Of a DNA stretch of 64,000 nucleotides, positions 6,899-60,424 are shown piece by piece. The translations under genes and the position numbers were made by a program. A model generated the notes under the pieces. The model did no database searches and was not told the DNA's origin. It saw only the letters and a list, made by a program, of their open reading frames with translations. The stretch is from the human T2T-CHM13v2.0 reference genome, Homo sapiens, in assembly GCA_009914755.4 (NCBI GenBank), contig CP086569.2, positions 1,664,001-1,728,000 of the forward strand, given 5' to 3'. Each line of letters opens with the position of its first letter. The stretch's first letter is position 1.

Positions 6899-7346
6899 AC
6901 ATTTTTCCCCTCTTACAATGACAGTATCATGTTGCATCAGGGGCCAACTCCGCTTCATTCTGACCAAATCTTTACGAATTGCATCTGCAAAGGCTCTATT
7001 TCCAAACGAGGTCACACTTGAGCTTCTGAGCAGACGTGAATTTGAGGGGTACATGTTTCAACCCCATTCACATCAACGTCTTTTTCTTCTTTAGCAATCA
7101 GTGAAGATAATAAGGTCATTTTTATTCTGAGAGGAAATGTGAGTTCGTCTCGTCTCAGAGGATTGCTCAGAGTCCAGTTGAGCATGGCTGGGGTGCTAGG
7201 CTGTGCCGTTCTTGCTCTAAGCCCGAGGGATAACTAATTTCCATTATTTTGTTCTTGCCGCCTCATAATTTGTCTACATGGGGGTGAGGAGAGTGAATGT
7301 CCTGTTACAGGAAGCTGTTGCGGGTGGACTATTTAAAGGGATTTCA

Positions 7347-8642
7347 GGCCAGGTGCGGCAGCTTATGCCTGTCATCCCACCACTTTGGGAGGCCGAGGAG
7401 GGTGGATCACAAGGTCAGGAGTTCGAGACCAGCCTGGCCGATATGGTGAAACTCCATCTCTACTAAAAATACAAAAATTAGCCGGGTGTGCTGTCGGGCG
7501 CCTGTAATCCCAGCTACTCAGGAGGCTGAGGCAGGAGAATCTCTTAGAACCCGGGAGGCGGAGGTTGCAGTGAGCCAGATTGGGCCACTGCACTCCAGCC
7601 TGGGTGACAAGAGGGAGACTCCATCTCAAAAAAAATCATAAAATAAAAAATTAATTAATTAAAAAGGCTAGGTGCAGTGGCTCATGCCTGTAATCCCAGC
7701 ACTTTGGGAGGCCGAGGTGGGCAGATCACCTGAGGTTGGGGGTTTGAGACCATCCTGGCCAACATGGTGAAACCCCATCTCTAGTAAAATACAAAAATTA
7801 GCTGGGTGTGGTGTCGGGTGCTTGTAATCTCAGCTACTCAGGAGGCTGAGGCAGAATCTTAGAATCCAGGAGGTGGAGGTTGCAGTGAGCCGAGATCAAG
7901 CCATTGCACTCCAGCCTGGGCGACAAGAGGGAGACTCTGTCTCAAAAAAATACATAATATAATAAAAATAAATAAATAATAAAATAGGCCAGGCACGGTG
8001 GTTCACGCCTGTAGTCCCAGCACTTTGGGAGGCCAAGGCGGGTGGATCACCTGATGTCAGGTGTTCGAGACCAGCCTGGCCAACATGGTGAAACCCCATC
8101 TCTACGAAAAATACAAAAATTAGGTGGGTGTGGTGTCGGGCGCCTGTACTCCCAGCTTCTCAGCAAGGTGAGGCAGGAGAATCTCTGAGAATCCGGGAGG
8201 TGGAGGTTGCAGTGAACTGAGATTGGGCCACTGCACTCCAGCCTGGGCGACAAGAGGGAGACTCTGTCTCAAAAAATATATATATATAAAATAAATAATT
8301 AATAAAATAGGTCAGGTGCACTAGCTCATGCCTGTCATCCCAGCACTTTGGGAGGCCAAGGCAGGTGGATCACCTGATGTCAGGACTTCGAGACCAGCCT
8401 GGCCAACATGGTGAAACCTCGTCTCTACTAAAAATACAAAAATTAGCCGGGTGTGGTGTCGGGCGCCTGTAATCCCAGCTTCTCAGGAGGCTGAGGCAGG
8501 AGAATCTCTTAGAACCCCGGAGGCAGAGGTTGCAGTGAGCTGAGATTGCACCACTACACTCCAGCCTGGGCGACAAGAGGGGGACTCCATCTAAAAAAAA
8601 AAATGATAAAAAATAAATAATATAAAAAGTAAAATAAATAAA
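7347..8642 (+). repeat. Fourfold tandem array of a ~323-bp unit = Alu + A/T-rich flank (Alus at ~7347-7633, 7666-7950, 7987-8278, 8311-8600)
   Basis: All four Alus share the private variants gtgtggtgtcgggcgcctgta, gagaatctcttagaacc.gggagg and gggcgacaagagggagactc. The same flank, aaaaaa.a.ataa.ataaataaataat.aaaatag, precedes the next copy. Period is about 321-324 bp. Confidence 0.85.
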
Positions 8643-10574: not shown

Positions 10575-10903
10575 TTATTCTTTGATATTTTATTTTATTT
10601 TATTTTATTTTATTTTATTTTGAGACAGAGTCTCGCTCTGTCTCCCAGGCTGGAGTGCAATGACCCTATTTTGGCTCACTGCAAACTCCACCTCTGGGGT
10701 TCAAGTGATTCTCCAGCCTCAGCCTCCTGAGTAGCTGGGATTACAGGCATTCACCACCAGGCCTGGCTAACTTTGTATATTTAGTAGAGACGGGGTTTCG
10801 TCATGTTGGCCAGGCTAGTCTCGAACTCCTGGCCGAGGTGATCCGCTCGCTTCAGCCTCCCAAAGTGCTGGGATGACACGTGTGAGCCACCGTGCCTGGC
10901 CCA
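10575..10903 (-). mobile_element. Alu with (ATTTT)n tail
   Basis: attttattttattttattttattttgagacagagtctcgctctgtctcccaggctggagtgcaatgaccc ... caaagtgctgggatgacacgtgtgagccaccgtgcctggcc. Confidence 0.9.
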
Positions 10904-11384
10904 AATCTTTCAAGCCGGCTGTCAGCAGGCATCCGTGTCAGGTCCACCTGTCCGTCCAGCTCCAAGCTGATTGTCAGCCACTGCACAGGCTGAAAAAAAT
11001 GGACTTTAATATCTGTGAAAACCTCGTTGGCTCAAAGGAAACTGTAGCAAATTCTTTTTTTTTATTTTTGTTTTTTAACTCAAAGAGTGGAGTTTGCATT
11101 GACCTTGTGATGGCACGCTGCTCTTTTGTTTTGGTGTAAATCCTCTAGTGGGCACTTTGCAAAAGCAATTTTAGAGCAAAGGTGGTGGCATGGAGTTGTG
11201 TGAGGTTGCTGAAAAGTAGCAAATGGAAGAAAGGTTAATGGAGCTGGATTTCTACAAAGGACGTCCTTTGAGGAGATCCACAGCAGCAACAATCACAGAG
11301 CAGCTTGCGTTTCCTATTCTGGGGACTTGGAGCACTTGATTGTAAGGAAGAAAGTGTGAGTGGGCACAAGGCTGGTGGTCACAA

Positions 11385-14300
11385 TAAAAAGAACAACAGT
11401 AATAATATGATACTACCACTGCATGAGAGCAGTAATAACAACAACAGTAATACAATACCACCGCCGTGTGAGAGCAGTAATAACTACAACAGTAATACGA
11501 TACCACCGCTGCATGAGAGCAGTCATAATCACAACAGTAATATGATACTACCGCCGCATGAGAGCAACAACAGTAATATGATACTACTGCCGCATGAGAG
11601 CAGTAATAACAACAGTAATATGATACTACCACTACATGAGAGCAGTCATAATCACAACAGTAACATGACACCACCGCCGCATCAGAGCAGTAATAACAAC
11701 AACAGTAATATGATACTACCGCCGCATGAGAGCAGTAATAACAACACTAATATGATACTACCACTACATGAGAGCAGTCATAATCACAACAGTAACATGA
11801 CACCACCGCCGCATGAGCAGTAATAACAACAACAGTAATATGATACTACCGCCGCATGAGAGCAGTAATCACAACAGTAATATGATACTACCGCTGCATG
11901 AGAGCAGTAATAACAGTAATATGATACTACCGCCGCATGAGAGCAGTAATAACAGTAATATGATACTACCGCCGCATGAGAGCAGTAATAACAACAGTAA
12001 TATGATACTACCGCCGCATGAGAGCAGTCATAATCACAACAGTAATATGATACTACCGCCGCATGGGAGCAGTAATAACAACAACAGTAATATGATACTA
12101 CCGCCGCATGAGAGCAGTAATAACAACAGTAATATGATACTACCGCTGCATGAGAGCAGTAATAACAGTAATATGATACTACCGCCGCATGAGAGCAGTA
12201 ATAACAACAGTAATATGATACTACCACTACATGAGAGCAGTCATAATCACAACAGTAATATGATACTACCACTACATGAGAGCAGTCATAATCACAACAG
12301 TAATATGATACTACCACTACATGAGAGCAGTCATAATCACAACAGTAATATGATACTACCGCCGCATGGGAGCAGTAATCACAACAGTAATATGATACTA
12401 CCGTTGCATGAGAGCAGTAATAACAACAACAGTAATATGATACTACCGCCACATGAGAGCAGTAATCACAACAGTAATATGATACTACCGCCGCATGAGA
12501 GCAGTCATAATCACAACAGTAATATGATACTACCGCCACATGAGAGCAGTAATAACAACAGTAATATGATACTACCACTACATGAGAGCAGTCATAATCA
12601 CAACAGTAATATGATACTACCACTACATGAGAGCAGTCATAATCACAACAGTAATATGATACTACCACTACATGAGAGCAGTCATAATCACAACAGTAAT
12701 ATGATACTACCGCTGCATGAGAGCAGTAATAACAACAGTAATATGATACTACCGCCGCATGAGAGCAACAACAGTAATATGATACTACTGCCGCATGAGA
12801 GCAGTAATAACAACAGTAATATGATACTACCGCCGCATGAGAGCAGTAATAACAACAGTAATATGATACTACCACTACATGAGAGCAGTCATAATCACAA
12901 CAGTAATATGATACTACCGCCGCATGAGAGCAGTAATCACAACAGTAATATGATACTACCGCTGCATGAGAGCAGTAATAACAGTAATATGATACTACCG
13001 CCACATGAGAGCAGTAATAACAGTAATATGATACTACCGCCGCATGAGAGCAGTAATAACAACAGTAATATGATACTACCGCCGCATGAGAGCAGTCATA
13101 ATCACAACAGTAATATGATACTACCACTACATGAGAGCAGTCATAATCACAACAGTAATATGATACTACCGCTGCATGAGAGCAGTAATAACAACAGTAA
13201 TATGATACTACCGCCGCATGAGAGCAGTAATAACAGTAATATGATACTACCGCCGCATGAGAGCAGTCATAACAGTAATATGATACTACCGCCGCATGAG
13301 AGCAGTAATAACAACAGTAATATGATACTACCGCTGCATGAGAGCAGTAATAACAACAGTAATATGATACTACCACTACATGAGAGCAGTCATAATCACA
13401 ACAGTAATATGATACTACCGCCGCATGGGAGCAGTAATCACAACAGTAATATGATACTACCGTTGCATGAGAGCAGTAATAACAACAACAGTAATATGAT
13501 ACTACCGCCGCATGAGAGCAGTCATAATCACAACAGTAATATGATACTACCGCCGCATGAGAGCAGTCATAATCACAACAGTAATATGATACTACCGCCA
13601 CATGAGAGCAGTAATAACAACAGTAATATGATACTACCACTACATGAGAGCAGTCATAATCACAACAGTAATATGATACTACCACTACATGAGAGCAGTC
13701 ATAATCACAACAGTAATATGATACTACCACTACATGAGAGCAGTCATAATCACAACAGTAATATGATACTACCGCTGCATGAGAGCAGTAATAACAACAG
13801 TAATATGATACTACCGCCACATGAGAGCAGTAATAATCACAACAGTAATATGATACTACCGCCGCATGAGAGCAGTAATCACAACAGTAATATGATACTA
13901 CCGCCACATGAGAGCAGTAATAACAGTAATATGATACTACCGCCACATGAGAGCAGTAATCACAACAGTAATATGATACTACCACTACATGAGAGCAGTC
14001 ATAATCACAACAGTAATATGATACTACCGCTGCATGAGAGCAGTAATAACAACAGTAATATGATACTACCGCCACATGAGAGCAGTAATAATCACAACAG
14101 TAATATGATACTACCACTACATGAGAGCAGTCATAATCACAACAGTAATATGATACTACCGCCACATGAGAGCAGTAATAACAACAGTAATATGATACTA
14201 CCGCCGCATGAGAGCAGTAATAACAGTAATATGATACTACCGCCACATGAGAGCAGTAATAACAGTAATATGATACTACCGCCACATGAGAGCAGTAATC

Positions 14301-15289
14301 ACAACAGTAATATGATACTACCACTACATGAGAGCAGTCATAATCACAACAGTAATATGATACTACCGCCGCATGAGCAGTAATAACAGTAATATGATAC
14401 TACCGCCGCATGAGAGCAGTAATAACAACAGTAATATGATACTACCACTACATGAGAGCAGTAATAATCACAACAGTAACATGACACCACCGCCACATGA
14501 GAGCAGTAATAACAACAGCAATATACTACCGCCGCATGAGAGCAGTAATAACAACAGTAGTATGATACTACCACTACATGAGAGCAGTCATAATCACAAC
14601 AGTAATATGATACTACCGCCGCATGAGAGCAGTAATAACAGTAATATGATACTACCGCCGCATGAGAGCAGTAATAACAGTAATATGATACTACCGCCGC
14701 ATGAGAGCAGTAATAACAAGAGTAATATGATACCACCACCGCATGAGAGCAGTAATAACAACAGTAATATGATACCACCGCCACATGAGAGCAGTAATAA
14801 CAACAGTAATATGATACTACCACTACATGAGAGCAGTCATAATCACAACAGTAATATGATACTACCACTACATGAGAGCAGTCATAATCACAACAGTAAT
14901 ATGATACTACCGCCGCATGAGAGCAGTAATAACAGTAATATGATACTACCGCCACATGAGAGCAGTCATAATCACAACAGTAATATGATACTACCGCCGC
15001 ATGAGAGCAGTAATCACAACAGTAATATGATACTACCGCCACATGAGAGCAGTCATAATCACAACAGTAATATGATACTACCACTACATGAGAGCAGTCA
15101 TAATCACAACAGTAATATGATACTACCACTACATGAGAGCAGTAATAACAACAGTAATATGATACTACCGCCACATGAGAGCAGTCATAATCACAACAGT
15201 AATATGATACTACCGCTGCATGAGAGCAGTAATAACAAGAGTAATATGATACCACCGCCACATGAGAGCAGTAATAACAACAGTAATAT

Positions 15290-15312
<23 letters not shown>
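11385..15312. repeat. Large minisatellite/VNTR (A): about 90 tandem copies of a 39/42/45/48-bp unit (~3.9 kb)
   Basis: Units such as cagtaataacaacagtaatatgatactaccgccgcatgagag (42 bp), cagtcataatcacaacagtaatatgatactaccactacatgagag (45 bp) and cagtaataacagtaatatgatactaccgccgcatgagag (39 bp). Every unit length is a multiple of 3 and one frame per strand lacks stops. This explains the ORF-track ORFs 11813..14383 (+, 856 aa, SSNNNSNMILPPHE repeats) and 11784..14324 (-, 846 aa, SHAAVVSYYCCYYC repeats), plus 14373..15425 / 14344..15300. Confidence 0.97.
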
Positions 15313-16074
<762 letters not shown>

Positions 16075-16239: not shown

Positions 16240-16790
16240 TCTCACAGACTAGGTGGCTTAACCAACAGACATTGATTCTCCCACAGTCCTGGAGGCTGCA
16301 AGTCTGAGATCCAGGTGTGGGCAGGGCTGGTTCCTCCTGAGGCCTCTCTCCTTGGCTTGGAGACACTGTCTTCTCCCTGCAGCCTCACAGGGTCATCCCT
16401 CTGTGTGTGTCTGTGTCCTCACCTCCTCTTCTTATGAGATGCCTTAGTCCATTTCAGGCTGCTAACACAGAATACCATAGACTGGGTGACTTATAAACAA
16501 CAGACATTGATTCTCCCACAGTCCTGGAGGCTGGAAGTCTGAGATCCAGGTATGGGCAGGGCTGGTTCCTCCTGAGGCCTCTCTCCTGGGCTTGTAGACG
16601 CCGTCTTCTCCCTGTGCCCTCACAGGGTCATCCCTCTGTGTGTGTCTGTGTCCTCACCTCTTCTTCTTATGAGATGCCTTAGTCCATTTCAGGCTGCTAA
16701 CACAGAATACCATAGACTGGGTGACTTATGAGCAACAGACATTGATTCTCCCACAGTCAAGACAGGGGAAGACCATGGAGAGGAGGGTCA
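16240..16790 (+). mobile_element. Interspersed repeat (same family as 50480-51370 and 54250-55700; probably LTR/MaLR-related, name uncertain), internally duplicated ~2.2x with a ~240-bp period
   Basis: The block ...gggtgacttataaacaacagacattgattctcccacagtcctggaggctg.aagtctgagatccaggt.tgggcagggctggttcctcctgaggcctctctcc...cacagggtcatccctctgtgtgtgtctgtgtcctcacct...tcttatgagatgccttagtccatttcaggctgctaacacagaataccatagactgggtgactta occurs twice, at 16250-16490 and 16490-16730. Confidence 0.7.
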
Positions 16791-17554
16791 TGTATCTGTA
16801 ACTCTTGAACATTTTATTCCAGGATCAAGTAAACGTGCCAATATTTGGGTTAGCTTTCTGCTTTTTCTCCGGCAAAACACGACAATTTACACTGCATTGA
16901 ATTTAAGGATGGTTGCTTTCTCCTTGACATGCCAACAGAACAAACAGGGTCTCCGATTCTGAAATGACTCCAGATTTGGGAGACAAAGTTGTGTCAGCCA
17001 ATTTCTACAGATGCTGTCTGTAGACTCTGCTTGTGCCTGCATTTGGCTTTACAGATTCAGGCTGTGTTTCTGGAGCCGCCTCGCACGTTCTCCTCTATTG
17101 AGATTATAAAATTATCAAAAGCTTGAAGGTAAATGCTCTCTGTTGACTCAACACGATTACAACTTTGTGTGTGTGTGTTTGCTGCAGTGCAGCGCACAAG
17201 TTTTATAGGACAACCTGAGCCTTCATTTCTTCAGTTTGACATTCTGAGTTTAAGACAAAGGGAATGATCACCCCGCCGTGTTCTTGGTAAAGGAAGAGTG
17301 TTAGAGCATCATGGCAGTATTCTTCCAGCCTCCAGGAAGAGAAGCTTTTAAAATGACAATTTCTGATTTGACATTTTCACTTGTAACACCCTAGAGGTAT
17401 AGGCAGGTCTTGCATCTGCAAAAGGTTATTGCTGTGGAGAATTGGGAGCTGTGGTAAATGAAGTGTGACCGCCTTGCCCACAGTAAGGCAGGGAAGACAA
17501 GAGAATGTAAAAAATGTGAATACCTTGAGGAAGACAGTGTGCTAATTCCTCAAG

Positions 17555-18707: not shown

Positions 18708-21700
18708 CAACAGGGAACAGATTTCAGCATGAGACCCAAACACCTCCACCCAGTCCCACCTCCATCACTGGGAACCAGATTTCAGCATGAGACCCAAACC
18801 CCTCACCCAGCCCCACCTCCATCACTGGGAACAAGATTTCAGCATGAGACCAAACACCCTCACACAGACTCACCTCCAACAATGGGGACCAGATTTCAGC
18901 ACGAGACCAAACACCCTCACCGAGCCCCACCTCCAACACTAGGGACCAGATTTCAACATGAGAAACAAACACCTCCATCCAGCCTCACCACTAATACGGG
19001 GGACCAGATTTCAGCATGAGACCCAAACACCCTCACCCAGCCCCACCTCCCACACTGGGAACAAGATTCCAGCATGAGACCAAACACCCTCACACAGACT
19101 CACCTCCAACAATGGGGACCAGATTTCAGCAATAGACCCAAACACCCTCACCCAGCCCCACCTCCAAACTGGGGACCAGATTTCAGCATGAGACCCAAAC
19201 ACACTCACGCAGCCCCAACTCCAACACTGGGGACCAGATTTCAGCATGAGACACACACACCTCCACCCGGCCTCACCCCCAACACTGGAGACCAGATTTC
19301 AGCATGAGACCCAAACACCCTCATCCAGACCCACCTCCAACAATGGGGACCAGATTACAGCATGAGACCCAAACACTTCCACCCAGCCCCACCGCCAACA
19401 CTGGGGACCAGATTTCAGCAGGAGACCCAAACACCCTCATCCAGACCCAACTCCAACATTGGTGACCAGATTTCAGCATCAGAACCAAACACCCTCACCC
19501 AGCCCCACCCCTAACACTGGGGACAAGATTTCAGCATGAGACCCAAACAACTCTATCCAGCCTCACCACCAACACTGGGGACCAGATTTCAGCATGACGC
19601 CTAAACACCCTCACACAGACCCACCTCCAACACTGGAGACAGATTTCAGCATGACATGCAAACATCTCGACCCAGCCCCACCTCCAACACTGGGAACCAG
19701 ATTTCAGAATGAGACCCAAACACTTCCACCCAGCCCCACCTCCAACATTGGGGAGCAGATTTCAGAATGAGACCCAAACACCTCCACCTGGCCTCACCTC
19801 CAACTTCAGGGACCAGATTTCAGCATAAGACACAAACACCTCCACCCAGACCCACATCAAACACTGGGAACAAGATATCAGCATGAGACCCAAACACGTC
19901 CACCCAGCCCCACCTCCAACAATGGGGACCAGATTTAAGCATGAGGCGAAAACACCCTCACCCAGACCCACCTCCAACACTGGGGACCAGATTTCCGCAT
20001 GGCACCCAAACACGCTCATCCAGACCCACCTCCAACATCGGTGAAAAGATTTCAGCATGAGACCCAAACACGCTCACCCAGCCCCACCCCTAACACTGGG
20101 AACAAGATATCAGCATGAGACCCAAACACCCTCACCCAGCCCCACCTCCAACAATGGGGACCAGATTTCAGCATGAGACCCAAACACCTCCACCTGGCCT
20201 CATCCCCAACACTGGGGACCAGATTTCAACATGAGACGCAAACACCTCCACCTGGCCTCACCTCCAACTTCAGGGACCAGATTACAGCATGAGACCCAAA
20301 CACCTCCACCCAGACCTACCTACAACACTGGGAAACAGATTTCTGCCTGAGACCCAGACACCTCCATCCAGCTTCACCACCAGCACTGGGGACCAGATTT
20401 CAGCATGAGACCCAAACACCCTCAGCCAGCCCCACCTCCAACACTGCGGACGAGATTTCAGCATGAGACCCAAACATCCTCACCCAGCCCCACCCCTAAC
20501 ACTTGGGACCAGATTTCAGCATGAGACCCAAACACCCTCACCCAGCACCCCCTCCAACACTGGGGATGAGATTTCAGCATGAGACCCAAACACCCTCACA
20601 GAGCCCCACCCCTAACGCTGGGGACCAGTTTTCAGCATGAGACCCAAACACCTCCATCCAGCCTCACCACCAACACTGGGGACCAGATTTCAGCATGAGG
20701 CCCAAATACCCTCACCCAGACCCACCTCCAACACTGGGGACGAGATTTCAGCATGAGGCCCAAACACCCTCACGCAGACCCACCTCCAAAACTGGGGACC
20801 AGATTTCAGCATGAGACCCAAACACCTCCACCCAGCCTCAACACCAATACTGGAGACCAGATTTCAACATGAGACCCAAACACCTCCACCCGGCCTCAAC
20901 ACCAATACTGGAGACCAGATTTCAACATGAGACCCAAACACCTCCACCCAGCCTCACATCCAATACTGGAGACCAGATTTCAGCATGAAGCCCAAACACC
21001 CTCACCCAGCCCCATCTCCAATAATGGGTACCGGATTTCATCATGAGACCCAAACGCTTCAACCCAGCCCCAACTGCAACACTGGGGAACAGATTTCAGC
21101 ATGAGACACAAACACCCTCCCCAAGACCCACCTCAAACACTGGGGACCAGATTTCAGCATGAGACCCAAACACCTTCACCCAGCACCACCCCTAACACTG
21201 GGGACCAGATTTCAGCATGAGACCCAAACACCTTCACCCAGCACCACCCCTAACACTGGGGGCCAGATTTCAGCATGAGACCCAAACACCCTCACCCAGC
21301 CCCACCTCCAACACTGGGGACAAGATTTCAGCATGAGACCCAAACACCCTCACCCAGCCCCACCCCTAACACTTGGGGACCAGATTTCAGCATGAGACCC
21401 AAACACCTCCATCCAGCCTCACCTCACCTGGGACCAGATTTCAGCATGAGACCCGAACACCTCCATCCAGCTTCACCACCAACACTGGGGACCAGATTTC
21501 AGCATGAGGCCCAAATACCCTCACCCAGACCCACCTCCAACACTGGGGACCGGATTTCAGCATGAGACCCAAACACCTCCATCCAGCCTCACCACCAACA
21601 CTGGGGACCAGATTTTAGCATGAGACCCAAACACCCTCACCCAGCCCCACCCCTAACACTTGGGACCAGATTTCAGCATGAGACCCGAACACCCTCACCC

Positions 21701-22325
21701 AGCACCCCCTCCAACATTGGTGACCAGATTTCAGCATGAGACCCAAACACCCGCACCCAGCCCCACCCCTAACACTGGGGACCAGAATTCAGCATGAGAC
21801 CCAAACACCTCCATCCAGACTCACCTCCAACTTTGGGGACCAGATTTCATCATGAGATCCAAACACCTCCATCCGACTGGCCTCACCTCCAACAGTTGGG
21901 GCCAGATTTCAGCATGAGACCCAAACACCTCCATCCGGCCGGCCTCACCTCCAACATTGGGGACCAGATTTCAGCGTGAGACCCAGACACCCTCACCCAG
22001 CACCCCCCCAACACTGGGGACCAGATTTCAGCATGAGAGCGAAACACCTCCATCCAGCCTCACCACCAATACTGGGGACCAGATTTCTGCATGAGACTCA
22101 AACACCTCCATGCAGCCGGCTTCACCTCCAACACTGGGGCGAGATTTCAGCATGATACCCAAACACTTCCACCTGGCCTCACCTCCAACACTGGGGCGAG
22201 ATTTCAGCATGATACCCAAACACTTCCACCTGGCCTCACCTGTAACAGTGGAGACCAGATTTCAGCATGATTCCCAAACACCTCCACCTGGCCTCACCTC
22301 CAACATCAGGGATCAGATTTCAGCA
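18708..22325. repeat. Large minisatellite/VNTR (B): about 62 tandem copies of a ~57-bp unit (~3.6 kb)
   Basis: Unit ggggaccagatttcagcatgagacccaaacaccctcacccagccccacctccaacact with variants (cctccatccagcctcaccaccaacact etc.). The ORF-track peptides show a 19-aa periodicity (GTRFQHETKHPH..PPP.L). The array terminates in ...cctcacctccaacatcagggatcagatttcagcatgagatttggagaagacaaacatgc. Confidence 0.95.
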
Positions 22326-22479
22326 TGAGATTTGGAGAAGACAAACATGCCGACTATATCAGCCACCGCGCCTGGCCACAGATATTTAGTCCTTAGCAAC
22401 TGGTGTCCTTATGAAAAGGGGGAAATGGGATGTGAATGGCGAGAAGCTATGGGAACTTTGCAGTGATGCTGCCCCAAGT

Positions 22480-27184: not shown

Positions 27185-27875
<691 letters not shown>

Positions 27876-29299: not shown

Positions 29300-29411
29300 A
29301 AGAAAAGGAAACAATAATCATGAAGGAAGGAAAGAAAGAAAGAAAAAAGAAAGAAGGAAGGAAGGAAAAGGAAGGAAGGAAGGGAAGGGAAGGAAGGGAA
29401 AGGAAAGGAAG

Positions 29412-29469
<58 letters not shown>

Positions 29470-29735
29470 GGAAGGAAGGAAGGGAAGGGAAAGGAAAGGA
29501 AAGGAAGGGAAGAAAGAAAGAAAGAGAAAGAGAGAAAGAAAGAAAAAGAAAGAAAAGAAGGAAGGAAAGAAAGAAAGAAAAGAAGGAAGGAAAGAAAGAG
29601 AGAAAGAGAGATGGACGGAAGGGAAGGAAAGGGAAGGGAAGGAAAGGGAGAGAGAGAGAAAAAAAAAGAAAGAAAGGAAGGAAGGAAGGGGAAAGGAAAG
29701 GAAAAGAGAAAAAGAAAAGAAAGAAATAGGAGAAA
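29300..29735. repeat. Long polypurine (GAAA)n/(GGAA)n/(GA)n microsatellite composite (~435 bp)
   Basis: gaaagaaagaaagaaagaaagaaag..., ggaaggaaggaagggaaggg. Source of the K/E/R-rich ORFs 29277..29729 and 29320..29748 (+) and of the S/F/L-rich ORFs on the minus strand. Confidence 0.95.
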
Positions 29736-31935: not shown

Positions 31936-32775
31936 CCACCAGGTTCCTTCCATGGCATGTGGGCATTATGGGAGCTACAGTTCAAGATGAGATTTGGGTG
32001 GGGACACAGCCAAACCCTGTCACATGGTTGGACCTTTCCTCTGCACGTCTGTATTCCAACATTAGAAAAATGTGCCCAGGATAACCACTGGTTCCTCCCA
32101 TGGCATGTGGGCATTATGGGAGCTACAGTTCAAGATGAGATTTGGGTGGGGACACAGCCAAACCCTATCACATGGTTGGACTTTTCCTCTGCACGTCTGT
32201 ATTTGAACATTAGAGAAATGTGCCCAGGATAACCACTGGTTCCACCCATGGCATGTGGGCATTATGGGAGCTACAGTTCAAGATGAGATTTGGGTGGGGA
32301 CACAGCCAAACCCTGTCACATGGTTGGACCTTTCCTCTGCACGTCTGTATTCCAACATTAGAAAAATGTGCCCAGGATAACCACTGGTTCCTCCCATGGC
32401 ATGTGGGCATTATGGGAGCTACAGTTCAAGATGAGATTTGGGTGGGGACACAGCCAAACCCTATCACATGGTTGGACCTTTCCTCTGCACGTCTGTATTT
32501 GAACATTAGAGAAATGTGCCCAGGATAATCACTGGTTCCACCCATGGCATGTGGGCATTATGGGAGCTACAGTTCAAGATGAGATTTGGGTGGGAACACA
32601 GCCAAACCCTATCACATGGTTGGACCTTTCCTCTGCGCGTCTGTATTCCAACATTAGAAAAATGTGCCCAGGATAATCACTGGTTCCTCCCATGGCATGT
32701 GGGCATTATGGGAGCTACAGTTCAAGATGAGATTTGGGTGGGGACACAGCCAAACCCTATGGTCCCAAAATGATG
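31935..32775 (-). repeat. 148-bp tandem repeat x ~5.7 formed from the 5' terminus of the THE1-like LTR plus ~80 bp of adjoining sequence
   Basis: Unit ccatggcatgtgggcattatgggagctacagttcaagatgagatttgggtggggacacagccaaaccct.tcacatggttggacctttcctctgcacgtctgtatt..aacattaga.aaatgtgcccaggataa.cactggttcc.c. The ORF track shows the same 61-102-aa peptides (MPTCHGRNQWLSWAHFSNVGIQTCRGKVQPCDRVWLCPHPNLILNCSSHNAHMPW...) repeated at 31929, 32062, 32210, etc. Confidence 0.9.
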
Positions 32776-48117: not shown

Positions 48118-48400
48118 AGGCCAGGCGCAGTGGTTCACGCCTGTTATCCCAGCACTTTAGGAGGCTGAGGTGGGCGGATTACCTGAGGTTGGGAGTTCAA
48201 GACCAGCCTGGCCAACATGGTGAAACCCCGTCTCTACTAAAAATACAAAAATTAGCCAGGTGTGGTGACACACGCCTATAATCCCAGCTACTCAAGAGGC
48301 TGAGGCAGGAGAATTGCTTGAACCTGGGAGGCAGACACTGCAGTGAGCCAAGTTGCACTACTGTACTTCCAGCCTGGGTGACAGAGCAAGACTCTGAGAG
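48118..48400 (+). mobile_element. Alu
   Basis: ggccaggcgcagtggttcacgcctgttatcccagcactttaggaggctgaggtgggcggattacctgaggttgggagttcaagac...ccagcctgggtgacagagcaagactctgagagagag. Confidence 0.9.
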
Positions 48401-48441
48401 AGAGTGAGAGAGAGAAAGAAGGAAAGAAGGAAGGAAGGAAG

Positions 48442-48473
<32 letters not shown>

Positions 48474-48850
48474 AAGAAAGAGATAGAAAGAGAGAGAGAG
48501 AAAGGAAAGAAGGGAAACGAAGAAAGGAAGGAAGGAGGGAAGGGAAGGAAGGAAGGAAGGAAGGAAGGAGAGAAAAAAAGAAAGAAAAAAGAGAAAGAAA
48601 GAAAGAGAGAGAAAGAGAAAGAAAGAAAGAGAAAGAGAGAGAGAAAGAAAGAGAGAGAGAGAAAGGAAAGGGAAACGAAGGAAGGGAGGGAGGGAGGGAA
48701 GGGAAGGAAGGAATGAACGAAGGAAGGAGAGAAAAAAAGAAAAAGAAAGAAAGAAAGGAAGGAAGGAAGGAAGGAAGGAAGGAAGGAAGAAAGCAAGAAA
48801 GGAAGGGAGGAAGGGAAAGAAAAGGAAAGAAAGCAAAGAAAGCAAGAAAG
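48400..48850. repeat. Long polypurine (GA)n/(GAAA)n/(GGAA)n composite (~450 bp)
   Basis: gagagagtgagagagagaaagaaggaaagaaggaaggaaggaagg... Source of the K/E/R-rich ORF 48404..48871 (+) and of the S/F/L-rich minus-strand ORFs. Confidence 0.95.
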
Positions 48851-49401
48851 AGAGAAAGAAAGAGGTCTTAGGGTACAAGTGCCCGGGTCATTTTTGGTTC
48901 ACTCAACTTCATTTTCAAGAATACCTGAGAATCCATCCGCTTGTCTGAACACATAACGATGTGACTGTGAAGATCAGCTGGAAAATGCAAGAGGAAAACC
49001 AGGAACTTCCCACTGGCAACAAGCTGAGTAATCAACTTGTCAGGCACAGTCCTTGCCCCAAGCAAATGCTTTGAAAATGATGAGTTTTGATCTTGTATTT
49101 GGTTGGGTCCTGTGCTTTCTGCTAGATACAGGAAGTTATGTGCTCCTTGTATTAACAGCAGACCAAGCCTCTTCCTATGTTATCATTGAAACTATTGATC
49201 AAGGACATGAATCTCTCTCTTTGATTATTAGCCCAGGAATGGAGTTAATTTATTTTATGAACATCACATAAAGTAACCAATGCTTTGGGCAGCTTCATTA
49301 GGACTTTTGAAAAGGCTTAGAAGGCAAATTGAATGATTCAAGAGGCAACATAAGAGAAAGGATAATGGTTTGATGATATCTACACCATAATATCTCACTG
49401 A

Positions 49402-50479: not shown

Positions 50480-51370
50480 GCTACTGTGTGTCAGCCTTTT
50501 CAGTTTGCTGTAACAAAATATCACATTGCTTATAAACAACAGCCATTTATTGCTCATAGTTCTGCAGGCTGAATATCCAAGATCAAGGCTTGGCAGCTTC
50601 AGAGCCTGGGGAGAACCCACTTCCTGGTTCATAGACGGCACCTTCCCACAGTGTCCTCACATGGTGGAAGACACGAGGGAGCTCTGTGGGGTCTCGCTTC
50701 CTGGTTCATAGACGGCACCTTCCCACAGTGTCCTCACATGGTGGAAGAGACGAGGGAGCTCTGTGGGGTCTCGCTTCCTGGTTCATAGACGGCACCTTCC
50801 CACTGTGTCCTCACATAGTGGAAGAGACGAGGGAGCTCTGTGGGGTCTCGCTTCCTGGTTCATAGACGGCACCTTCCCACAGTGTCCTCACATGGTGGAA
50901 GAGACGAGGGAGCTCTGTGGGGTCTCGCTTCCTGGTTCATAGACGGCACCTTCCCACTGTGTCCTCACATAGTGGAAGAGACGAGGGAGCTCTGTGGGGT
51001 CTCGCTTCCTGGTTCATAGACGGCACCTTCCCACAGTGTCCTCACATGGTGGAAGAGACGAGGGAGCTCTGTGGGGTCTCGCTTCCTGGTTCATAGACGG
51101 CACCTTCCCACTGTGTCCTCACATGGTGGAAGAGACGAGGGAGCTCTGTGGGGTCTCGCTTCCTGGTTCATAGACGGCACCTTCCCACTGTGTCCTCACA
51201 TGGTGGAAGAGACGAGGGAGCTCTGTGGGGTCTCTTTTATAAGGACGCTGATAATCGTGTGCGGATCTGTTGCCTCCAAATCTCACGCTGAAATCTGATT
51301 CCCAATGTTGGAGGTAGGGCTGGCTGGAGGCATGTGGGTCACGGAAGTGGATTCCTCATACACGGCTTGG
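50480..51370 (+). mobile_element. Interspersed repeat (same family as 16240-16790 and 54250-55700) containing an internal 77-bp x 8 tandem expansion
   Basis: 5' part ...gctgtaacaaaatatcacattgcttataaacaacagccatttattgctcatagttctgcaggctgaatatccaagatcaaggcttggcagc.... 3' part tcttttataaggacgctgataatcgtgtgcggatctgttgcctccaaatctcacgctgaaatctgattcccaatgttggaggtagggc.... Confidence 0.7.
50621..51236 (+). repeat. 77-bp tandem repeat x 8 with 154-bp higher-order periodicity
   Basis: ttcctggttcatagacggcaccttcccacagtgtcctcacatggtggaagagacgagggagctctgtggggtctcgc starts at 50621, 50698, 50775, 50852, 50929, 51006, 51083 and 51160. Copies alternate between cacagtg...catggtgg and cactgtg...catagtgg. Confidence 0.92.
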
Positions 51371-57522: not shown

Positions 57523-57960
57523 ACATGGGAGGGAGGGAGGGAGGGAGGGGAGAGAGAGAGAGAGAAAGGAAGGAAGGAAGGAAGGAAGGAAGGAAGGAAG
57601 GAAGGAAGGAAGGAAGGAGGGAGGGAGGGAGGGAGGGGAAAGAGAGAGAGAAAGAACAAATGAACGAAAGAAAGAAAGAAAAGGAAGGAAGGAAGGGAAA
57701 ATCTGCTGTGGGAGAAAGAAAGAAAGAAGAAAGAAAGAGAAAGAAAGGAAAAGGAAAGAAAGAAAATCTGCTGAAGGAGAAAGAGAGAAAAAGAAAGAAA
57801 GAGAAAGAAAGATCTGCTGAAGGAGAAAGAGAGAAAAAGAAAGAAAGAAAAAGGAAGAAAGATCTGCTGAAGGAGAAAGAAAGAGAGAAAAAGAAAGAAA
57901 GAAGAAAAAGAGAGAAAGAAAGAAGAAAGAAAGAGAAAGAAGAAAGTAAAAGAAAGAAAG

Positions 57961-58015
<55 letters not shown>

Positions 58016-58070
58016 AAAGAAAGAAAGAAAAAGAAAGGAAAGAAAGAAAAAAAGGAAAGAAGGAGAAATC
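57522..58070. repeat. Long polypurine (GGGA)n/(GGAA)n/(GAAA)n composite (~550 bp) with embedded ~55-75-bp sub-repeat
   Basis: gagggagggagggagggg..., ggaaggaaggaagg..., gaaagaaagaaagaaag.... The unit atctgctg.aggagaaaga.agagaaaaagaaagaaagaa recurs at ~57703, 57768, 57821, 57868 and 58068. Source of the K/E/R-rich ORF 57492..58076. Confidence 0.93.
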
Positions 58071-58764
58071 TGCTGAGGGATAGGACATAATTACCTGGTG
58101 TTTTCCCAGACAGGGCACTTCCTCATTTCACACAATTGGGGGTCTATTCCCTTTTATCCTTCCCATTTTACGTGTCGTCCTTTTCTCTTGGCTCCCATGA
58201 GATACGCCTCTGGGTTTCAGAACGACTCTGCCCGTGGATGATATGGGAACTCTTATCAGCATTGTCAAACCTCCTGGGTGGAGGGGAGTAGGAGAAACTC
58301 CCATTTCTCTTTGTCCTCTGGGGAACTCACTCCATTTCTCTCCCAGAGACGATGTATCTGATATTAGATTGGCTATTTGGACATTGCTAGTGCAAAATGT
58401 TGACACTTCATTTTTCTCCTAAGTCATTACATCCACAGAGCAGGTCGTGTGTTTGTGTCTTGGAACGCAAGTTCTTAGGGACTTTCAGATTTGTTTTGTC
58501 ACTGAATTCTCTCCGGACGCCGGGCACTAGGCAGGCCCCATGAACATCCTGTTTTAGCAAACGTCTGAAACTCCAGGACTCATAAGTGGATGAATAAAGC
58601 AGTTGAGTTTTACATCTGTGTCTTCTGACGTCTTTCATGAAGTGTTTCCTCAGCCTGACTGTACATCAAATTCACTCCAGATGTACCATAAAAATGCATA
58701 TTCCTGGTTTCTATCTCCGACGACTATAACTCGGTTAGACACCAGGTCTATCGTATGTTTTTTT

Positions 58765-59890: not shown

Positions 59891-60424
<534 letters not shown>

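What the first reader, a model, noticed from the sequence alone, without database searches (positions are those of the whole stretch)
11385..15312. 3.9-kb minisatellite (VNTR-A), ~90 copies of a 39/42/45/48-bp unit
The array is essentially uninterrupted. Its units are AT-rich apart from a CpG-containing core (cagtaataacaacagtaatatgatactaccgccgcatgagag). Arrays of this size and purity are usually hypervariable in copy number between haplotypes and are often misassembled or collapsed in short-read assemblies. Its location immediately upstream of a second 3.6-kb minisatellite (18.7-22.3 kb) is notable.
Basis: seen in the sequence. Interest (0 to 1): 0.75.

Follow-up and report, generated by a model that had tools for sequence, protein, structure and literature searches.

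The report
Ordinary non-coding 42-bp primate minisatellite
This is a real 3.9-kb run of about 92 head-to-tail copies of a 42–45-bp DNA unit in Alu-rich primate sequence; it codes for nothing detectable and looks like one of the tens of thousands of ordinary minisatellites in such genomes.

Summary
Tandem Repeats Finder reports one uninterrupted array at 11403–15315, with about 92 copies, 88% matches and score 5189. My own parse gives 91 units of 45, 42, 39 and 36 bp. There are no 48-bp units. Two units carry the same 2-bp deletion.

The array is a mosaic of 36 unit variants. It grew by duplication of whole units and multi-unit blocks, including a 294-bp exact copy 1062 bp away. Length classes differ by triplet indels in an internal AAY/CAY tract. 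Base substitutions concentrate ten-fold at two CpG sites.

All unit lengths are multiples of 3, and one frame on each strand is open. It is still not a coding repeat. The two deletions break both frames, variation ignores codon position, and no protein in about 2–6 billion sequences resembles either frame.

It lacks the classical GC-rich minisatellite core, the PRDM9 hotspot motif, hairpin potential and G-quadruplex potential.

Its units are far more alike than an adjacent old 382-bp duplication, and the array holds no Alu although 4.4 are expected. Both point to recent or continuing turnover. Copy-number polymorphism is therefore likely, but these tools cannot test it.

The chromosomal locus could not be placed. 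Verdict: genuine, ordinary, low interest.

The parts
11385..15348 (+). The whole minisatellite. It has a partial first unit (from about 11389), 91 parsed units (11422-15302), and a degenerate last unit with a non-repeated tail (15303-15348). Units are 36/39/42/45 bp and GC is 39%.
   Evidence: TRF (11403-15315, 91.8 copies, score 5189); sequence; unit parse; 26-mer scan gives 90 hits against 0 in shuffles.
11812..11854 (+). 43-bp unit with a 2-bp deletion (CATGAGCAG instead of CATGAGAGCAG). It shifts the open frame on both strands.
   Evidence: the stop-free stretches on both strands end and restart here.
14372..14408 (+). 37-bp unit with the same 2-bp deletion. This is the second frame break. 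The same rare variant occurs 2.5 kb from the first, which shows that variants spread within the array.
12294..12756 (+). Source or copy of a multi-unit block duplication. It is exactly repeated at 13353-13818: 157 bp exact at offset 1059 and 294 bp exact at offset 1062.
   Evidence: longest exact self-matches; unit-code words HCBBF and CAN...
13353..13818 (+). Second copy of the multi-unit block duplication.
15347..15655 (+). Alu 1, directly after the array's tail. It is part of an old 382-bp tandem duplication of unit + tail + Alu.
   Evidence: Alu BLAST (15355-15632); TRF period-382 row; alignment.
15656..15730 (+). Orphan, unexpanded copy of the unit plus the same tail (…attatactaccaccgcatgagagcagtagtgagagtaagaataaaagtaacagcagcagcc). 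It shows what the proto-unit looked like.
   Evidence: (hit at 15670).
15728..16016 (+). Alu 2. It shares private substitutions with Alu 1 (TGTCATCCC and GGGAGTCCGAGG), so the two descend from a single insertion that was duplicated together with the unit.
   Evidence: 88% column identity.
18713..22330 (+). Neighbouring, unrelated minisatellite: 58 bp x 62 copies, C-rich on the + strand, CpG-poor. It runs into LTR-like sequence at both ends. Context only, not part of the 42-bp array.
   Evidence: TRF; sequence; CpG observed/expected 0.15.

Best explanation
This is a non-coding minisatellite that grew from one copy of a roughly 42-bp stretch of ordinary, low-complexity, triplet-rich DNA.

Shown:
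- An unexpanded sister copy of the unit survives 340 bp downstream, behind an Alu. Unit, tail and Alu were duplicated once, long ago, as a 382-bp block.
- The upstream copy was then amplified to about 92 units by repeated duplication and deletion of whole units and multi-unit blocks.
- The unit-length classes (36/39/42/45 bp) differ by triplet indels within an internal AAY/CAY/AGT tract.
- The main base substitutions are transitions at the two CpGs of the CCGCCG core, giving CCGCCA, CCGCTG and CCACTA. These arose a few times and were then copied along the array.

Inferred:
- The molecular process is replication slippage and/or unequal sister-chromatid or inter-allelic exchange, as proposed for minisatellites in general.
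- The triplet indels arose by small-scale slippage.
- The array is methylated in the germline.
- It is still turning over, so it probably varies in copy number and variant order between haplotypes.
- It has no sequence-specific function; any effect would come through length or methylation acting on neighbouring genes.
For: - Array and its significance.
- Mosaic of 36 variants among 91 units.
- Variants travel as whole units: the CCACTA core is followed by the 45-bp-type segment in 22 of 23 cases, against 11 of 67 otherwise (Fisher p = 7e-12).
- Block duplication: a 294-bp exact self-match at offset 1062 and 175-bp matches at offsets 351 and 1413. Repeated 3-, 4- and 5-unit words number 5, 2 and 1, against 0.35, 0.015 and 0.0008 in shuffles.
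- Rare variants recur far apart: the 2-bp deletion at 11812 and 14372, the J unit at 11557 and 12758, the N unit at 12365 and 13424.
- Regional homogenisation: CCGCCA is skewed to the 3' half (p = 0.004).
- CpG decay: pairwise diversity is 0.355 at CpG columns and 0.035 elsewhere.
- Triplet periodicity: self-identity is 0.51 at offset 3, and all common length classes differ by 3 bp.
- Origin and relative age: the orphan unit, tail and Alu align to the last unit, tail and Alu at 88% with shared private Alu changes, while units differ by only about 3.5% at non-CpG sites. There is no Alu inside 3.9 kb although 4.4 are expected (P = 0.012).
- Non-coding: both open frames are broken at the two 2-bp deletions. 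Variable sites fall 4/6/5 over codon positions 1/2/3. No homologue was found for either frame. The exhaustive search returned only unrelated periodic proteins, none with the MILPPHES unit. No RNA family matches.
- Published VNTR surveys describe the same picture: structured motif variants, with alleles differing mainly by block duplications and deletions, mostly in introns or between genes (PMC8327921).
Against: - Copy-number variation, germline methylation and the mutational process itself were not observed; they are inferred from a single sequence.
- The enrichment of private variants at the array's edges, expected under interior homogenisation, is only weak (p = 0.04 at one cut-off, not significant at two others).
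- Adjacent identical units are not significantly in excess (7 against 4.1, p = 0.11).
- The array keeps many CpGs (observed/expected 0.70). This could instead mean it is unmethylated in the germline.
- The locus was not placed, so a role as part of a transcript or regulatory element cannot be excluded.
Confidence: 0.88

Rival explanations
1. Coding VNTR: the array is an exon, or a young open reading frame, encoding a repeat protein. The product would be (SNNNSNMILPPHES)n on the + strand or (CCYYCSHAAVVSYY)n on the - strand, as in mucin-type coding repeats.
For: Eighty-nine of 91 units have lengths that are multiples of 3. One frame on each strand is free of stops for up to 860 and 871 codons. 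In-frame ATG codons occur in every unit.
Against: - The two 2-bp deletions split both frames into three pieces that lie in different frames.
- Two of six frames being open is roughly what chance gives for a 42-bp unit (my estimate: about 0.5 probability per frame), and the multiple-of-3 lengths follow from the internal triplet tract.
- Variable sites show no third-position excess, and the commonest changes are non-synonymous (P to L, N to H).
- Neither frame has a homologue among 5.8 billion clustered proteins. In the exhaustive search of 1.84 billion representatives, the 103 hits are unrelated periodic proteins.
- No CpG island or recognisable exon lies nearby.
Confidence: 0.03
2. Assembly artefact: the tandem array exists, but its length or unit order in this window is a product of mis-assembly (collapse, expansion or mis-joining).
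For: The near-exact 460-bp internal duplicate is the kind of feature a mis-join could create.
Against: The array has a rich, non-periodic order of 36 variants, with degenerate edges that grade into unique flanks. There are no abrupt junctions, N runs or inverted segments. The internal duplicate differs from its partner by a 3-bp indel (offsets 1059 and 1062), as expected for a real, slightly aged duplication.
Confidence: 0.06
3. Functional cis-regulatory or epigenetic VNTR: the roughly 90 regularly spaced CpG pairs form a methylation-sensitive platform or an array of transcription-factor sites, and its length tunes a nearby gene.
For: CpG observed/expected is 0.70 in the array, against 0.35 for the window and 0.15 for the neighbouring array. 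Thirty-five of 91 units keep both CpGs. Published work links VNTR length and motif content to expression (abstracts of PMC10234305 and PMC11701250).
Against: GC is only 39%, so this is not a CpG island by the usual criteria. CpG sites are the most decayed positions in the unit, which argues against selection to keep them. High CpG retention is equally explained by a recent expansion from a CpG-bearing unit. No gene, promoter or RNA was found in the window.
Confidence: 0.08
4. Transposon-borne VNTR: the array is the internal variable region of a composite retroelement (SVA-like), or was seeded inside an interspersed repeat, as the neighbouring 58-bp array was.
For: The 58-bp array 3.4 kb away runs into LTR-like sequence at both ends. 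An Alu follows the 42-bp array directly.
Against: The left flank (10902-11384) is single-copy in the window and has no CCCTCT hexamer run or antisense Alu-like part. The Alu after the array is a complete sense-strand Alu that was duplicated together with the orphan unit, so it is not an SVA component. The unit occurs nowhere else in the window, nor in three contig collections. No repeat-family library was available, so an old, unrecognised repeat as the source cannot be excluded.
Confidence: 0.05

Closest known systems
Non-coding human VNTRs/minisatellites of the kind catalogued by Sulovari et al. 2019 and Course et al. 2021 (for example the 41-bp LOC102725191, 48-bp PLCB4 and 69-bp WDR7 arrays; PMC8327921)
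   Same: The unit size sits at the survey mean (about 40 bp). The array has several interspersed motif variants in a structured order, and it changes mainly by block duplication and deletion. It appears to lie in non-coding, non-retrotransposon DNA. Its length is within the reported range of 65-14,168 bp.
   Different: At 3.9 kb and 92 copies it is about 2.5 standard deviations above the survey means (1.19 kb; about 40 copies). Whether it is human-specific or polymorphic was not tested. Its locus is unknown, so I cannot say whether it is one of the listed loci.
Classical hypervariable GC-rich minisatellites (Jeffreys core family, e.g. MS32/D1S8, CEB1); comparison from general knowledge
   Same: Tandem units of tens of bp, and interspersed variant repeats suitable for variant-repeat (MVR) mapping. 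There is some strand asymmetry (A 41% against T 20% on the + strand).
   Different: GC is 39% rather than above 60%. There is no GGGCAGGANG core, no chi-like motif in the unit, no PRDM9 13-mer and no G-quadruplex potential. Nothing therefore points to the hotspot-driven meiotic conversion that underlies their extreme mutation rates.
Coding VNTRs such as the MUC1 60-bp repeat (cited in PMC8327921)
   Same: Unit lengths are divisible by 3, and there are long stop-free frames.
   Different: The frame is broken twice, there is no codon-position signature, and there are no protein relatives.
AT-rich minisatellites at rare fragile sites (FRA16B 33-bp, FRA10B about 42-bp); comparison from general knowledge
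   Same: Similar unit length, and AT-biased composition relative to most minisatellites.
   Different: AT is only 61%, not about 90%. Single strands show no excess hairpin stability (z from -0.1 to +2.1).
Repeat-seeded VNTRs (the SVA internal VNTR, and arrays that arise inside LTRs)
   Same: Same mode of growth. The neighbouring 58-bp array in this window is of this type.
   Different: The 42-bp array begins and ends in sequence that is not recognisably a transposon. The downstream Alu is a passenger of an older duplication.

Membership tests
Minisatellite (tandem repeat, unit about 10-100 bp, array of hundreds of bp to tens of kb) | Head-to-tail copies of a 10-100-bp unit | tested here: met
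   TRF gives period 45, a 42-bp consensus and 91.8 copies. My own parse gives 91 units of 36-45 bp.
Minisatellite (tandem repeat, unit about 10-100 bp, array of hundreds of bp to tens of kb) | Array far beyond chance, contiguous, 0.5-30 kb | tested here: met
   The array is 3.9 kb with no interruption. There are 90 core matches against 0 in 100 shuffles.
VNTR in the strict sense (copy number varies between individuals) | Different array lengths in different haplotypes | not testable with these tools
   No primate assemblies or population data are reachable. No other copy was found in metagenome, genome or viral contigs, and no catalogue supplements are held.
VNTR in the strict sense (copy number varies between individuals) | Internal signs of recent duplication/deletion turnover (indirect proxy) | tested here: met
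   A 294-bp exact internal duplicate. Repeated multi-unit words far above shuffles. Unit diversity of 3.5% against 12% for the flanking duplication. No Alu inside, P = 0.012.
Classical hypervariable GC-rich minisatellites (Jeffreys core family) | GC-rich unit containing the GGGCAGGANG core or a chi-like motif | tested here: not met
   GC is 39%. There are 0 core and 0 chi matches in the array.
Classical hypervariable GC-rich minisatellites (Jeffreys core family) | Association with a meiotic hotspot motif (PRDM9 13-mer CCNCCNTNNCCNC) | tested here: not met
   There are 13 matches in the window and none in either minisatellite. The nearest to the 42-bp array is at 17469. Actual hotspot activity is not testable here.
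Protein-coding VNTR (MUC1-like) | Unit length divisible by 3 | tested here: met
   Eighty-nine of 91 units. This is explained by the internal triplet tract.
Protein-coding VNTR (MUC1-like) | One uninterrupted reading frame through the array | tested here: not met
   The two 2-bp deletions split the frame into 183-, 860- and 354-codon pieces that lie in three different frames. The same holds on the minus strand.
Protein-coding VNTR (MUC1-like) | Encoded repeat has protein relatives or shows coding constraint | tested here: not met
   There are no hits for either strand. The exhaustive search returned only unrelated periodic proteins. Variable sites fall 4/6/5 over codon positions.
SVA or other transposon-internal VNTR | Array embedded between the diagnostic parts of the element (CCCTCT run, antisense Alu-like part, SINE-R, or LTR sequence on both sides) | tested here: not met
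   Flanks were read directly and the Alu map was consulted. No repeat-family library was available, so an old unrecognised repeat cannot be excluded.
AT-rich fragile-site minisatellites (FRA16B/FRA10B type) | Extreme AT content with strong hairpin or cruciform potential | tested here: not met
   AT is 61%. DNA folding z-scores run from -0.12 to +2.12 on both strands.

The most novel reading that the evidence does not exclude
The array is a recent, lineage-specific (possibly human-specific) expansion. Its roughly 100 regularly spaced, still largely intact CpGs would make it a length-dependent methylation or regulatory element for a neighbouring gene. Less likely, some haplotypes lack the two 2-bp deletions and carry an intact ORF of about 1,300 codons that is a newly arisen repeat protein.
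Probability: 0.06. Interest if true: 0.45.

Novelty: already known. Interest (0 to 1): 0.13.

Why it matters
It matters little beyond bookkeeping. Arrays like this are a recognised source of structural variation and of mapping and assembly errors, and a 3.9-kb pure array should be flagged as a probable copy-number-variable, short-read-inaccessible site.

The useful outcome is negative. The tempting 'coding VNTR' reading, based on unit lengths divisible by 3 and 860-codon open frames on both strands, is shown to be an artefact of unit composition and an internal triplet tract.

The array is also a clean example of how a minisatellite records its own history. An unexpanded sister copy survives, CpG decay variants were spread by block duplication, and the absence of Alus serves as a rough clock. 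If the locus turns out to lie in or near a disease gene, the unit-variant map given here would be a starting point for typing alleles.

Tried and rejected
1. Coding repeat. Tested on both strands with two word-indexed searches of 5.8 billion proteins and one exhaustive HMMER search of 1.84 billion representatives. The only hits were unrelated periodic proteins. Rejected.
2. Structured RNA. Rfam at gathering thresholds on the whole window gave only two Alu-derived SRP hits. In E-value mode on the array it gave only mir-196 at 20.6 bits against a gathering score of 55.4. Rejected.
3. Hairpin- or G-quadruplex-driven instability. Folding z-scores are not negative and the array has no G4 motifs. 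Rejected.
4. Hotspot or core-motif-driven instability. No PRDM9 13-mer, Jeffreys core or chi motif in the units. Rejected as far as sequence motifs can show.
5. Finding other alleles or copies as host contamination in metagenome, prokaryotic-genome and viral contig collections. Zero matches. Dead end.
6. Finding the locus in the literature by sequence. Twelve substrings of both arrays on both strands gave zero papers. Dead end.
7. Looking up the motif in the supplements of VNTR catalogue papers. None are held as text. Dead end.
8. Placing the locus through a coding exon. There is no CpG island. Single-copy stop-free stretches of at least 50 codons, taken from roughly the first 50 kb of the window, gave no match to any solved-structure sequence. 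A full six-frame Pfam scan was judged too costly for the likely yield and was not run.
9. Edge-versus-centre gradient of private variants. Only a weak trend, so it is not used as evidence.
10. The 8-bp match GCATGAGA between the 42-bp and 58-bp units. I estimate about 0.05 such matches by chance, and I treat it as coincidence.
Full report
OBSERVATION. Tandem Repeats Finder reports one array at 11403-15315: period 45, consensus 42 bp, 91.8 copies, 88% matches, 6% indels and score 5189. Reading the sequence and splitting it at the invariant CATGAGAG block gives 91 units. A partial first unit starts near 11389, and a degenerate last unit with a tail runs from 15303 to 15348. A 26-bp core of the unit matches 90 times with up to 3 mismatches, against none in 100 dinucleotide-preserving shuffles. 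Eighty-nine of those matches lie in the array and one is an orphan copy at 15670.

Two details need correcting. The length classes are 45, 42, 39 and 36 bp, with no 48-bp units. Two units (11812 and 14372) carry the same 2-bp deletion. The window is primate DNA: 64 Alu blocks make up 29% of it. I could not verify that it is human.

ANATOMY. Each unit has three parts:
- A constant block, AGTAATATGATACTAC-core-CATGAGAG.
- A 6-bp core. It is CCGCCG in 35 units, CCACTA in 23, CCGCCA in 17, CCGCTG in 10, and three rarer forms in 2 units each.
- A variable triplet tract. Its forms are CAGTCATAATCACAAC (30 units), CAGTAATAACAAC (24), CAGTAATAAC (13), CAGTAATCACAAC (9), CAGTAATAACAACAAC (6) and rarer ones.

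All common length classes differ by whole triplets, and ungapped self-identity at an offset of 3 bp is already 0.51. The multiple-of-3 unit lengths therefore come from indels within a small internal AAY/CAY/AGT tract. I infer that these indels arose by slippage.

In the 33-bp constant block, pairwise diversity is 0.355 at the four CpG positions and 0.035 at the other 29. Base substitution is thus dominated by CpG transitions. The array still holds 104 CpGs, with observed/expected 0.70, against 0.35 for the window and 0.15 for the neighbouring 58-bp array.

HOW IT GREW. The 91 units fall into 36 distinct types arranged as an interspersed mosaic. Several results show that variants travel as whole units and as blocks:
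- The CCACTA core is followed by the 45-bp-type tract in 22 of 23 cases, against 11 of 67 otherwise (Fisher p = 7e-12).
- Rare variants recur far apart. The 2-bp deletion is at 11812 and 14372, unit J at 11557 and 12758, and unit N at 12365 and 13424.
- The longest exact self-match is 294 bp at an offset of 1062 bp. A further 157 bp match at offset 1059, so 12294-12756 is duplicated at 13353-13818 with one 3-bp indel.
- Repeated 3-, 4- and 5-unit words number 5, 2 and 1, against 0.35, 0.015 and 0.0008 in shuffled arrays.
- The CCGCCA variant is concentrated in the 3' half (p = 0.004), which suggests regional homogenisation.

Two expected signals were weak. Private variants are only marginally enriched at the edges, and adjacent identical units are not in significant excess.

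This pattern is what long-read surveys of human VNTRs describe: structured motif organisation, with alleles differing mainly by duplications and deletions. Those surveys attribute it to homologous recombination, unequal sister-chromatid exchange or replication slippage (PMC8327921).

ORIGIN AND RELATIVE AGE. Directly after the array come a 45-bp non-repeated tail and a full sense-strand Alu. Then follow an orphan copy of the unit with the same tail (15656-15730) and a second Alu. The two unit + tail + Alu segments align at 88%. The two Alus share private substitutions, TGTCATCCC and GGGAGTCCGAGG, where the Alu consensus as I recall it has A and G. They therefore descend from one insertion that was duplicated with the unit as a 382-bp block (TRF row).

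Only the upstream copy expanded. Units inside the array differ by about 3.5% at non-CpG sites, against about 12% for the old duplication. The 3.9-kb array contains no Alu although the local density of 1.13 blocks per kb predicts 4.4 (Poisson P = 0.012). Both results indicate that the array reached its present size well after the bulk of Alu insertion here, or that it is continually renewed. This supports the expectation of copy-number polymorphism indirectly. It does not demonstrate it.

IS IT CODING? This was the one potentially interesting lead. Eighty-nine of 91 units have lengths divisible by 3. One frame on each strand is stop-free for up to 860 codons on the + strand (SNNNSNMILPPHES repeats) and 871 on the - strand (CCYYCSHAAVVSYY repeats). 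The evidence against a coding repeat is as follows:
- The two 2-bp deletions split both frames into three pieces lying in three different frames.
- Variable sites fall 4/6/5 over codon positions 1/2/3 in the 45-bp class, and the frequent changes are non-synonymous.
- Neither frame has a match with E <= 0.001 in 5.8 billion clustered proteins. Both of those searches hit the 8000-candidate ceiling, so I also ran the exhaustive search of 1.84 billion representatives.
- The exhaustive search gave 103 hits, the best at 3.6e-26 with 15-46% identity. The best ones I read are unrelated repeat proteins with a 12-15-residue period whose scores build up repeat against repeat. None of the 103 contains MILPPHES.
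- By my estimate, two open frames out of six is about what chance gives for a 42-bp unit.

I reject the coding reading.

OTHER MECHANISMS TESTED. No Rfam family matches the array. Three-unit stretches of either strand fold no better than shuffles as single-stranded DNA (z from -0.12 to +2.12). The units contain no Jeffreys core, chi motif, PRDM9 13-mer or G-quadruplex motif. This is therefore not a member of the classical GC-rich hotspot-associated hypervariable minisatellites. It is also not an AT-rich hairpin-forming fragile-site repeat, since AT is only 61%. The flanks show no SVA or LTR parts, unlike the neighbouring 58-bp array, which runs into LTR-like sequence at both ends.

CONTEXT. 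The window has no CpG island and no RNA gene other than Alu-derived SRP matches. Single-copy stop-free stretches from roughly the first 50 kb have no relative among solved protein structures. The array is thus probably intronic or intergenic, like 97% of the 467 VNTRs surveyed in PMC8327921.

I could not place the locus. Three contig collections and two literature searches held no copy of the unit, and the supplements of catalogue papers were not available.

Compared with those 467 human-specific VNTR expansions, the unit size is average. The array, at 3.9 kb and 92 copies, is about 2.5 standard deviations above the mean but well inside the reported range.

VERDICT. This is a real, large, pure, non-coding minisatellite of an entirely familiar kind. 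Its inference of hypervariability is reasonable and indirectly supported, but untested. Its interest score is too high. I rate the kind as already known, with the caveat that I could not check whether this particular locus has been catalogued. Interest is 0.13.

Noticed in passing
whole window; e.g. 909-1736, 7346-8621, 15284-16014, 16259-16758, 27196-27716, 31942-32760, 50620-51234, 59945-60068: The window carries many independent tandem duplications of unrelated source sequences. Arrays with period of at least 7 bp cover 24% of it. Why this stretch is so prone to tandem duplication is unexplained. A VNTR-hotspot or subtelomeric location is only a guess: the published subtelomeric enrichment concerns VNTRs with GC above 60% (PMC7608644), and the 42-bp array is 39% GC.
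   Followed up: partly
909-1736 and 27196-27716: Two separate Alu elements have a tandemly amplified left monomer (135 bp x 6.3 copies and 133 bp x 3.9 copies). BLAST against an Alu consensus shows repeated hits to Alu positions of about 1-190.
   Followed up: partly
7346-8621: Four complete Alus lie head to tail with a 323-bp period and 84% identity. This could be a duplicated Alu or a cluster of insertions; I did not resolve which.
   Followed up: no
18713-22330: The second minisatellite has a 58-bp unit, 62 copies and 82% matches. It is strongly C-rich on the + strand (GC skew about -0.4), is CpG-depleted (observed/expected 0.15), and carries 20 G-quadruplex-type motifs on the complementary strand. 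It runs into LTR-like sequence at both ends, so it was probably seeded inside an old LTR; I assign this to a MaLR/MLT1-type family from memory only. It contains no Alu although 4.1 are expected.
   Followed up: partly
11371-11378: A chi-like octamer, GCTGGTGG, lies about 10 bp upstream of the first (partial) unit of the 42-bp array. There are six such octamers in the window, against roughly two expected for a random 8-mer by my estimate. It has no established role in primates and is recorded as a curiosity.
   Followed up: no
31942-32760 and 50620-51234: Two young, very pure arrays: 148 bp x 5.5 copies at 96% and 77 bp x 8 copies at 98%. Both are built from sequence that resembles MaLR-type LTRs (THE1/MST-like and MLT-like, identified from memory).
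   Followed up: no
29322-29726, 48397-48863, 57527-58080: Three unusually long (400-550 bp) compound GAAA/GGAA/AGAA microsatellites. They produce spurious long Lys/Glu/Arg-rich or Ser/Phe/Leu-rich open frames on both strands.
   Followed up: no
11100-11370: The unique left flank contains two consensus-like splice-donor strings (GATT|GTAAGG near 11340 and AAGT|GTGAGT near 11355) just before the array, and only short ORFs of about 38 codons or fewer. It might be an exon of a non-coding transcript; this was not tested.
   Followed up: no
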